DNA from: Escherichia coli
GTDB lineage: Bacteria > Pseudomonadota > Gammaproteobacteria > Enterobacterales > Enterobacteriaceae
Assembly: GCF_003790525.1 (NCBI RefSeq)
Contig: NZ_CP033635.1
Reading direction: 5' to 3' (one strand)
Length of the DNA stretch: 64,000 bases
The notes beneath the pieces were generated by a model. The model made no database searches and had not been told where the DNA came from. It worked only from the letters and a program-made list of their open reading frames with translations. Shown here in pieces: positions 11,296 to 11,542 of this stretch. Numbering within the stretch: the first letter of the stretch is position 1; every line of letters begins with the position of its first letter. The translations under genes and the position numbers were made by a program.

Positions 11296-11435
11296 ACGAA
11301 CTGACAGCGGTGTTCCTCACACCGTTGTCATCTTACGCATTTTTGTCCGCGAGTTTTCACTTTGCATGACAAAAAGATGACACTACTTTTCTTTTTCTTA
11401 GTCAATAAAATCAAAAAGTTAATTAATAATTCTGA

Positions 11436-11478
11436 TTTGTCATAAAACTGTCATAAACCTTACATATAACTGTCACCT
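11436..11478 (+). promoter_or_regulatory. Pho boxes (PhoB binding sites) of the pstS promoter
   Basis: ttgtcataaaactgtcataaaccttacatataactgtcacc matches tandem CTGTCAT-type Pho boxes ~70 bp upstream of pstS. Confidence 0.85.
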
Positions 11479-11542
11479 GTTTGTCCTATTTTGCTTCTCG
11501 TAGCCAACAAACAATGCTTTATGAATCCTCCCAGGAGACATT

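What the first reader, a model, noticed from the sequence alone, without database searches (positions are those of the whole stretch)
11296..11542. Fimbrial operon ends ~140 bp from the Pho boxes with no obvious intrinsic terminator
Between the tip-subunit stop (11295) and the Pho boxes (11436..11478) I see only a weak long-range inverted repeat (gtcatctt ... aagatgac, ~11327..11385) and no hairpin-plus-T-run terminator. Read-through from the fimbrial operon into pstSCAB-phoU is therefore possible, which would couple fimbrial expression to phosphate-transport transcription, or conversely allow PhoB bound at the Pho boxes to influence the island.
Basis: inference. Interest (0 to 1): 0.35.

Follow-up and report, generated by a model that had tools for sequence, protein, structure and literature searches.

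The report
Missed stem-loop between fimbrial operon and pstS

Summary
The window is E. coli. It carries the lpfABCD-O113/stg-type ("lpf2") fimbrial operon between glmS and pstS. No canonical hairpin-plus-U-run terminator exists.

No shuffle out of 1000 reached that energy. A stem-loop sits at this position in all 16 distinct spacer alleles collected, from Escherichia, Salmonella, Citrobacter, Enterobacter, Pseudocitrobacter and Superficieibacter. It shows compensatory base changes, and none of the tails scored has a good U tract.

The untranslated spacer behind it is G-poor, with C/G of 1.6-2.5. My best reading, which is inferred and not shown, is that the stem-loop marks the 3' end of the lpf mRNA. 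It would act as a pause or weak terminator and an exonuclease barrier, with Rho finishing termination. Read-through into pstS cannot be excluded, but nothing supports meaningful coupling.

A side finding: the repeat's 3' arm lies in an inverted Pho box at 11366-11383 (16.9 bits, fourth best site in 64 kb). A conserved IHF-consensus site lies at 11409-11421.

Overall this is ordinary, with modest interest.

The parts
10225..11295 (+). Last gene of the fimbrial operon (lpfD-O113/stgD-like minor or tip subunit). Stop codon TAA at 11293-11295.
   Evidence: ORF list. NCBIfam StgD 3.7e-68 and LpfD 3.4e-39, both below the curated cut-offs. The identical locus in strain 2014C-3075 is annotated lpfA/B/C-O113 plus 'fimbrial protein'.
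11302..11330 (+). 5' arm 11302-11313, loop 11314-11318 (UCCUC), 3' arm 11319-11330. 12 pairs, -18.0 kcal/mol.
   Evidence: (I5). 0 of 1000 shuffles as stable. Present in all 16 distinct alleles. The covariance model finds it in 15 of 15 homologous alleles at E<=0.001. At E<=1 it found no + strand match in the K-12 spacer or behind the two fimbrial genes not next to pstS. Covariation shown.
11331..11345 (+). Tail after the stem-loop, UCUUACGCAUUUUUG. The U tract is interrupted. The T5 run (11340-11344) starts 9 nt after the stem and is not conserved.
   Evidence: T-tail score 1.95, against 4.7-5.5 for the four clearest terminators in the window. Tails are poor (1.2-2.8) in the alleles scored. 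The T run is absent in Pseudocitrobacter, E. fergusonii and other alleles.
11326..11382 (+). It is real, but it is explained by two TGTCA-containing elements: the hairpin 3' arm and a Pho-box half-site.
   Evidence: I9. Substitutions in 5 of 7 alleles break pairs outside the TGTCAT core. The centroid fold does not use this pairing.
11331..11532 (+). Untranslated, A+T-rich, G-poor RNA between the stem-loop and the pstS ribosome-binding site. C/G is 1.6-2.5 in 78-nt windows. A candidate Rho loading and termination zone.
   Evidence: window-wide median 0.92, 95th percentile 1.59. Composition.
11366..11383 (-). Predicted extra Pho box in inverted orientation (GTGTCATCTTTTTGTCAT, two TGTCAT half-sites 11 bp apart). 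It lies about 71 bp upstream of Pho box 1.
   Evidence: TGTCAY-N5-TGTCAY occurs only twice in 64 kb, with 0.06 expected. It scores 16.9 bits with the published 12-box matrix, fourth best of about 128,000 positions. Found at -119 to -122 from the -10 element in 9 of 16 alleles. 83% invariant against 16-18% in the flanks.
11409..11421 (+). Perfect match to the IHF consensus WATCAANNNNTTR (AATCAAAAAGTTA), between the inverted Pho box and the promoter Pho boxes.
   Evidence: 3 matches in 64 kb, so the match alone is not significant. It sits at a fixed -78 in 7 Escherichia/Pseudocitrobacter alleles, with all consensus positions kept (O113 has ATCAG). IHF is reported to affect the pst promoter in K-12 (titles of Spira & Yagil 1999 and Taschner et al. 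2006, seen in a reference list).
11437..11476 (+). pstS promoter Pho boxes: three overlapping 18-mers at 11437, 11448 and 11459. Similarity to genomes without the island resumes at 11438.
   Evidence: 19.7-21.1 bits. for the edge of similarity to K-12.
11487..11492 (+). pstS -10 hexamer TATTTT, 10 bp after the last Pho box.
   Evidence: Read from the sequence. Invariant in all alleles. The assignment follows the known K-12 pstS promoter (own knowledge).
11543..12583 (+). pstS, first gene of pstSCAB-phoU. Shine-Dalgarno AGGAG at 11533-11537.
   Evidence: PstS equivalog, 6.4e-225. Annotation.

Best explanation
The 247-bp spacer is a structured operon boundary.

- (1) The lpf/stg transcript carries a stable stem-loop (11302-11330) 6 nt after the lpfD stop codon.
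- (2) The stem-loop has no U tract directly behind it, so it is not a canonical intrinsic terminator.
- (3) I propose that it pauses or weakly terminates RNA polymerase and then shields the mature lpf mRNA 3' end from 3'-to-5' exonucleases.
- (4) I propose that polymerases which pass it are stopped mainly by Rho, acting on the ribosome-free, G-poor, C>G RNA of the next ~200 nt.
- (5) pstSCAB-phoU is then transcribed from its own PhoB-dependent promoter. Read-through from this probably weakly expressed fimbrial operon would add at most a small basal component.

Shown here: the stem-loop, its stability, its conservation and covariation, the missing U tract, and the C>G composition. Inferred: steps 3-5, including every statement about Rho, exonuclease protection and the level of read-through.
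For: - Stability: 12 pairs, -18.0 kcal/mol. 0 of 1000 shuffles are as stable.
- Conservation: a stem-loop starts 2-13 nt after the stop codon in all 16 distinct alleles, from six genera. The 55-nt post-stop segments fold at -14 to -22 kcal/mol.
- Covariation: 83.6% of cells are paired, against 26-61% when partners are slid. 5 of 12 pairs change on both sides. The covariation score is 0.244 against 0.160 in shuffles, with 0 of 500 reaching it.
- Hand register: compensatory G-C to A-U, U-A to C-G and G-C to U-A changes, plus an inserted C-G pair.
- Strand: seven wobble cells are G-U on the + strand and would be A-C mismatches on the other strand. The + strand folds better in 11 of 16 alleles.
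- One Salmonella allele has an unrelated GC hairpin (GCGGCCGC-UUUC-GCGGCCGC) at the same place. This suggests the structure, not the sequence, is under selection.
- No U tract: T-tail score 1.95 and discriminant -21.5. The internal positive controls (the glmS terminator at 6029-6048, the atpC terminator at 2321-2342, and those at 43318 and 54432) score +39 to +60.
- Composition: C/G of 1.6-2.5 across 11320-11537.
- The element is single-copy per genome, so it is not a REP-type repeat.
- Expression: no rise of pst genes alongside 10-12-fold higher lpf expression (PMC6033998).
Against: - No 3'-end mapping, Rho-inhibition or read-through data exist for this junction in anything I could read.
- Absolute C content in the spacer is low (14-26%). 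The ratio is high mainly because G is scarce.
- The spacer is short. Rho would have to act before pstS translation begins.
- The covariation alignment was fitted to the model, and several inner pairs of one allele class remained misaligned.
- The alleles are related, so shuffle controls overstate significance.
- The RNA-seq argument is weak. Part of the lpf difference between groups reflects gene presence or absence, and pst expression from its own promoter could mask read-through.
Confidence: 0.5

Rival explanations
1. The operon end is effectively open, so a substantial share of lpf transcripts runs into pstSCAB-phoU and couples fimbrial expression to phosphate-transport expression.
For: No canonical intrinsic terminator lies on the + strand. 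Hairpins without a U tract generally do not release E. coli RNA polymerase (own knowledge). The poor tail is itself conserved, so no allele has evolved a strong terminator here.
Against: A conserved, covarying stem-loop and a C>G untranslated spacer are present. pst genes did not follow 10-12-fold differences in lpf expression. Related lpf operons are reported to be H-NS-silenced and weakly expressed (own knowledge; general statement in PMC6033998). pstS has a strong dedicated promoter.
Confidence: 0.15
2. The stem-loop is an adequate intrinsic terminator despite its interrupted U tract (UCUU...UUUUU). Rho plays no part.
For: The stem is very stable and sits immediately after the stop codon. 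Three of the first four tail bases are U, and a U5 run follows 9 nt later.
Against: The discriminant is well below the window's true terminators (-21.5 against +39 to +60). The U5 run is not conserved, and several alleles have tails such as CAGACACC or CAGCGCUA with almost no U.
Confidence: 0.15
3. The inverted repeat acts at the DNA level, as a protein-binding palindrome, a recombination scar, or a terminator for an antisense transcript.
For: The arms contain TGACA/TGTCA, the PhoB half-site core. A weak promoter-like match on the minus strand overlaps Pho box 1. The minus-strand hairpin is still -15.1 kcal/mol.
Against: Many alleles lose TGACA in the 5' arm yet keep the pairing. Wobble pairs are G-U on the + strand only. 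The number of promoter-like matches in the region equals the shuffle expectation.
Confidence: 0.07

Closest known systems
lpfO113 / stg / lpf2 (O-island 154) chaperone-usher operons inserted between glmS and pstS
   Same: The position and gene order are the same: glmS, lpfA, lpfB, lpfC, lpfD, pstS. RefSeq names the identical locus lpfA/B/C-O113. O157 Sakai has its lpf2 version at the same site. PMC6033998 describes this 4-gene 'lpfB1' operon in phylogroup B1 STEC.
   Different: The lpfD allele here is about 84% identical in protein to LpfD-O113 and 39-43% to the two O157 LpfD proteins. The spacer is about 70% identical to the O113-type spacer. None of the papers I could read describes the post-lpfD stem-loop or the upstream Pho box. 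The original Doughty 2002 and Lymberopoulos 2006 papers were not available and may mention a terminator.
Canonical intrinsic terminators, for example the one after glmS in this same window (6029-6048 plus T7)
   Same: A G+C-rich stem-loop just downstream of a stop codon, with comparable stem energy (-16 to -18 kcal/mol).
   Different: The glmS, atpC and other true terminators are followed at once by 5-7 U. The lpfD stem-loop is followed by UCUUACGCA.
Rho-dependent transcript ends trimmed back to a protective stem-loop (described from E. coli 3'-end mapping; own knowledge)
   Same: A stable hairpin without a U tract lies close to the stop codon, followed by untranslated, G-poor, C>G RNA.
   Different: Nothing here shows Rho dependence or a mapped 3' end. 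This is the proposed mode of action, not a demonstrated membership.
E. coli K-12 pstS promoter (tandem Pho boxes replacing the -35; IHF reported to affect pst expression)
   Same: The sequence from 11438 to the pstS ATG is nearly identical to K-12. The three overlapping boxes and the -10 element are kept in all alleles.
   Different: Everything upstream of Pho box 1 is unrelated to K-12. The island version has an inverted Pho box at about -121 and an IHF consensus at -78 from the -10 element. The K-12 spacer has no upstream box of 11 bits or more and no exact IHF consensus.

Membership tests
Intrinsic (Rho-independent) terminator | Stable G+C-rich stem-loop shortly after the end of the last gene | tested here: met
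   12-bp stem, -18.0 kcal/mol, 6 nt after the stop codon
Intrinsic (Rho-independent) terminator | Run of U directly (0-2 nt) after the stem | tested here: not met
   The tail is UCUUACGCAUUUUU. T score 1.95 against 4.7-5.5 and discriminant -21.5 against +39 to +60 for the window's terminators. The tool's scan found none. The tail is poor in the alleles scored.
Intrinsic (Rho-independent) terminator | Factor-independent transcript release at the site | not testable with these tools
   Needs in vitro transcription or Term-seq
Rho-dependent terminator with protective 3' hairpin | At least ~70-80 nt of untranslated, weakly structured RNA with C>G | tested here: met
   C/G of 1.6-2.5 in 78-nt windows from 11320 to 11537, above the window's 95th percentile of 1.59. 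Absolute C is only 14-26%.
Rho-dependent terminator with protective 3' hairpin | Termination abolished by bicyclomycin or rho/nusG mutation; mature 3' end at the hairpin | not testable with these tools
   No transcript-end data available
Conserved structured RNA element | Base pairing maintained by compensatory substitutions across homologues | tested here: met
   5 of 12 pairs have double changes. 83.6% of cells are paired against 26-61% when slid. 0 of 500 shuffles reach the covariation score. Hand register; RNAalifold. Caveats: related sequences, and an alignment fitted to the model.
Pho box (PhoB binding site), for 11366-11383 minus strand | Two TGTCA-type 7-bp direct repeats with 11-bp periodicity that match the Pho box matrix | tested here: met
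   TGTCAT-N5-TGTCAT: 2 in 64 kb against 0.06 expected. 16.9 bits, inside the 13.5-21.8 range of the 12 training boxes.
Pho box (PhoB binding site), for 11366-11383 minus strand | Placed about 10 bp upstream of a -10 hexamer in the same orientation, so that PhoB can recruit sigma-70 | tested here: not met
   It is inverted relative to pstS and lies 121 bp from the pstS -10 element. No conserved -10 lies behind it on the minus strand; the segment 11331-11364 is 18% invariant (read by eye).
Pho box (PhoB binding site), for 11366-11383 minus strand | PhoB~P binding and phosphate-dependent effect | not testable with these tools
   Needs EMSA, ChIP or reporter assays
IHF binding site, for 11409-11421 | Match to WATCAANNNNTTR in an A+T-rich context | tested here: met
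   Exact match. The count in the window equals chance (3 against 3.3). The site is at a fixed position with consensus positions conserved in 7 alleles.
IHF binding site, for 11409-11421 | IHF binding and bending | not testable with these tools
   Needs EMSA or footprinting
lpfO113/stg-type chaperone-usher operon at glmS-pstS | Major subunit, chaperone, usher and minor subunit genes in this order between glmS and pstS | tested here: met

The most novel reading that the evidence does not exclude
In lpf2/stg-bearing strains (about 36% of complete E. coli genomes), the region upstream of pstS is a conserved three-part nucleoprotein module. It consists of an inverted Pho box (about -121 from the -10 element), an IHF site (-78) and the tandem promoter Pho boxes. 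An IHF-induced bend would fold the inverted PhoB dimer back alongside the promoter-proximal PhoB array. This could change the strength or threshold of pstS induction relative to K-12-type strains. In low phosphate it could also form a roadblock that shields pstS from lpf read-through. The lpf 3' stem-loop would be the third conserved element of the same boundary.
Probability: 0.2. Interest if true: 0.5.

Novelty: new member of a known kind. Interest (0 to 1): 0.27.

Why it matters
pstS is among the most tightly phosphate-controlled genes in E. coli, and the Pst system feeds back on the whole Pho regulon, which affects virulence. About a third of E. coli strains, including many STEC and ExPEC, have a fimbrial operon directly upstream of pstS in place of the K-12 spacer.

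If the boundary is a conserved stem-loop plus a Rho-favourable spacer, pst regulation in these strains can probably be treated as independent of fimbrial transcription. The stem-loop is also a simple handle for studying lpf mRNA stability.

The predicted inverted Pho box and IHF site are worth testing because they would mean pstS promoter architecture differs between island-bearing and island-free strains. None of this would be surprising to a specialist.

Tried and rejected
- Long-range repeat 11326-11334/11374-11382 as an RNA helix or anti-terminator: rejected. Substitutions in 5 of 7 alleles break it. It is far weaker than the local hairpin, and the centroid fold does not use it.
- Known RNA family: Rfam at a permissive E-value gave only one chance-level hit, outside the spacer.
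- Repeated element (REP/BIME-like): rejected. There is one place per genome.
- Antisense PhoB-dependent promoter behind the inverted Pho box: no -10 hexamer at about 10 bp, and that segment is poorly conserved (by eye).
- Second predicted hairpin 11341-11375: not conserved in other alleles.
- Pho box upstream of lpfA that would place the operon under PhoB: none found. The consensus search allowing 3 mismatches hit only the pstS boxes, and the best matrix score near lpfA is 9.5 bits.
- Literature link between lpf2/stg and PhoB or pst: searches found nothing specific. The APEC pst-mutant array paper cites Stg only as a method reference. The O157 PhoB paper lists only Z5223 at -2.2-fold. The two original locus papers are not held.
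- STEC against commensal HS difference in pst expression (PMC7649339): noted but not usable, because there are too many other strain differences.
- MAFFT-only covariation and the model-fitted alignment both misplace the inner pairs of one allele class, because the other class carries an inserted base pair. I therefore added a hand register.
- The terminator discriminant formula (d'Aubenton-Carafa type) was written from memory and used with modern energy parameters. I rely only on its internal calibration against the window's own terminators.

Full report
**What the locus is**

- The window matches E. coli strain 2014C-3075 at 100% across the junction.
- Gene order is atpDC, glmU, glmS (4179-6008), four fimbrial genes (6316-11295), then pstSCAB-phoU starting at 11543.
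- RefSeq names the first three fimbrial genes lpfA/B/C-O113. NCBIfam places the proteins nearest the Stg/Lpf chaperone-usher families.
- This is the lpfO113/stg/"lpf2" operon known to lie between glmS and pstS (PMC6033998). O157 Sakai carries its own lpf2 version at the same site.
- 1982 of 5426 complete E. coli genomes carry a match covering at least 80% of the junction query. Genomes without the operon match only from window position 11438 onward.
- Alignment with K-12 shows that the operon and its flanks replace the whole K-12 glmS-pstS spacer. Similarity stops just after the glmS stop codon and resumes at TGTCATAAAACTGTCAT, which is Pho box 1.

**Checking the observation**

- No hairpin-plus-U-run terminator exists on the + strand. 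The consensus scan of 10500-12500 found none.
- I scored every simple hairpin in the 64-kb window with a stem-energy plus T-tail discriminant. The formula is recalled from memory and was calibrated only against this window.
- That scan cleanly separated the four clearest terminators (after atpC at 2321, after glmS at 6029, and at 43318 and 54432; +39 to +60) from everything else. The best spacer candidate scored -21.5.
- It ranks among the ten most stable simple hairpins on the + strand of the window, level with REP elements and true terminators.
- None of 1000 dinucleotide shuffles of 11296-11437 reached its energy.

**Comparative evidence for the stem-loop**

- I collected the lpfD/stgD-to-pstS spacer from 16 distinct alleles.
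  - Four came from E. coli genomes, including O113-type and O157.
  - Four distinct alleles came from a species-level genome scan: Pseudocitrobacter, Superficieibacter, Citrobacter sedlakii, and an enterobacterial contig binned as a Flavobacterium MAG. A fifth locus from that scan, Escherichia sp. L010, has the same spacer as O157.
  - The rest came through LpfD homologues: an Escherichia whittamii-type allele, E. fergusonii, further E. coli and Escherichia alleles, one allele of unnamed origin (L016), Enterobacter hormaechei and two Salmonella. L022 repeats the Superficieibacter spacer.
- Every allele has a stem-loop starting 2-13 nt after the stop codon. The 55-nt post-stop segments fold at -14 to -22 kcal/mol.
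- Every tail scored is poor, with T scores of 1.2-2.8.
- A covariance model of the element found all 15 homologous alleles at 29-48 bits. At E<=1 it gave no + strand match in the K-12 spacer or behind the two related fimbrial genes that do not sit next to pstS.
- On the model alignment, 83.6% of cells pair, against 26-61% when partners are slid. Five of 12 pairs show changes on both sides. No shuffle out of 500 reached the covariation score.
- That alignment is fitted to the model, and the sequences are related, so these numbers are supportive rather than proof.
- A hand register shows G-C to A-U, U-A to C-G and G-C to U-A replacements. One allele class also has a whole inserted C-G pair.
- One Salmonella allele has an unrelated GC hairpin at the same place.
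- Wobble pairs are G-U on the + strand. The + strand folds better in 11 of 16 alleles. This points to the lpf-sense RNA as the structured molecule, but it is not decisive.

**How it most likely works**

- A conserved hairpin without a U tract is not a canonical intrinsic terminator, so I do not file it as one.
- The RNA behind it is ribosome-free for about 200 nt, A+T-rich and G-poor. C/G is 1.6-2.5, above the window's 95th percentile of 1.59.
- That is the compositional signature of Rho-dependent termination zones. In E. coli such transcripts are commonly trimmed back to a protective stem-loop (own knowledge).
- My best explanation is therefore that the stem-loop marks and stabilises the lpf mRNA 3' end, while Rho clears most polymerases before or around the pstS promoter. 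Confidence is about 0.5, and the mechanism is inferred.
- Read-through is not excluded, but I found nothing that supports meaningful coupling.
  - In STEC RNA-seq, the four lpf genes differed 10-12-fold between strain groups without any pst gene following. This is weak evidence, partly confounded by gene presence or absence.
  - An O157 low-phosphate/phoB study lists only the chaperone pseudogene, at -2.2-fold.

- Its 5' arm overlaps the 3' arm of the stem-loop (…GUUGUCA).
- Its 3' arm lies inside ATGACAAAAAGATGACA. Read on the minus strand, this is TGTCAT-N5-TGTCAT, the Pho-box repeat pattern.
- That pattern occurs only twice in the 64 kb, with 0.06 expected. The other copy is pstS Pho box 1.
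- With the published 12-box matrix (PMC3978041 Table S4), the site 11366-11383 (minus strand) scores 16.9 bits. It is fourth best of about 128,000 positions, directly after the three pstS boxes, and inside the range of the training boxes.
- An inverted box of 13-20 bits sits at -119 to -122 from the -10 hexamer in 9 of 16 alleles, including Enterobacter.
- Among seven Escherichia/Pseudocitrobacter alleles it is 83% invariant, while its flanks are 16-18% invariant.
- Between it and the promoter boxes lies an exact IHF consensus, AATCAAAAAGTTA at 11409-11421. It has a fixed position and conserved consensus bases in the same seven alleles.
- IHF is reported to affect the pst promoter in K-12 (paper titles seen in a reference list).
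- The K-12 spacer has neither an upstream box of 11 bits or more nor an exact IHF match.
- I saw no conserved -10 element behind the inverted box, so an antisense promoter is unlikely (by eye).
- An auxiliary PhoB site brought to the promoter by an IHF bend is possible but untested.

**Verdict**

- There is indeed no canonical terminator. However, the spacer holds a conserved RNA stem-loop, a Rho-favourable tract, and phylogenetically footprinted sites upstream of the pstS promoter.
- The stem-loop is an ordinary kind of element that appears unannotated: there is no feature in RefSeq and no Rfam family.
- The island-type pstS upstream architecture is a modest, testable lead.
- Interest is low to moderate.

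Noticed in passing
window 11366-11383 (minus strand) and 11409-11421: A high-scoring inverted Pho box and an exact IHF consensus sit upstream of the pstS promoter boxes. Both are strongly conserved among island-type spacers while their flanks are not, and both are absent from the K-12 spacer. They suggest a different pstS upstream architecture in lpf2/stg-bearing strains.
   Followed up: partly
window 6009-6060, versus L001 (K-12) glmS-pstS spacer: glmS is followed here by its own canonical terminator (GGGCUGCCGACCGGCGGCCC + U7, 6029-6055), unrelated in sequence to the K-12 glmS terminator. The K-12 sequence just downstream of glmS, where Tn7 normally inserts (own knowledge), is therefore replaced in these strains, although the glmS 3' coding end is conserved.
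   Followed up: no
loci L009, L011, L012, L018, L019, L020: A homologous fimbrial operon and a homologous spacer adjoin pstS in Salmonella, Citrobacter, Enterobacter, Pseudocitrobacter and Superficieibacter. Spacer length is held at 244-251 bp in most alleles. The 'island' may therefore be an old resident of this site that some E. coli lineages lost or exchanged, not a recent insertion.
   Followed up: partly
L006 1705-2933 (E. coli ECL27829) and L004 1-1131 (FDAARGOS_943): Natural IS insertions occur at this locus. An IS3-family element lies inside the lpfD-pstS spacer in one strain, and an IS2 element truncates lpfD in another. These strains are ready-made variants for asking whether the upstream spacer elements matter for pstS expression.
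   Followed up: no
window 12595-12625 and 14526-14555: Very stable hairpins (about -20 kcal/mol) without U tracts lie in the pstS-pstC and pstA-pstB gaps. They look like REP-type elements, and one is GCCGGATGCGGCGTGAACGCCTTATCCGGC. They are comparable in stability to the lpfD stem-loop.
   Followed up: no
window about 16550-19038: Downstream of phoU, the identical strain is annotated with a frameshifted small ORF and a type III effector protein gene, where another E. coli (strain 2014C-3307, locus L003) has bglG-bglF. O157 Sakai has espY/espX-like pseudogenes in the same place.
   Followed up: no
locus L008 (QFQM01000265.1): A contig labelled as a Flavobacterium psychrophilum MAG carries an enterobacterial lpfD-like gene and a pstS promoter region with Pho boxes. 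It is almost certainly mis-binned.
   Followed up: no
PMC7649339: Two STEC strains showed no significant change in pstS on adherence, while commensal HS dropped 81-fold. One of the two, 97-3250, carries the O113-type island. This could relate to the different pstS upstream regions, but many other strain differences exist.
   Followed up: no
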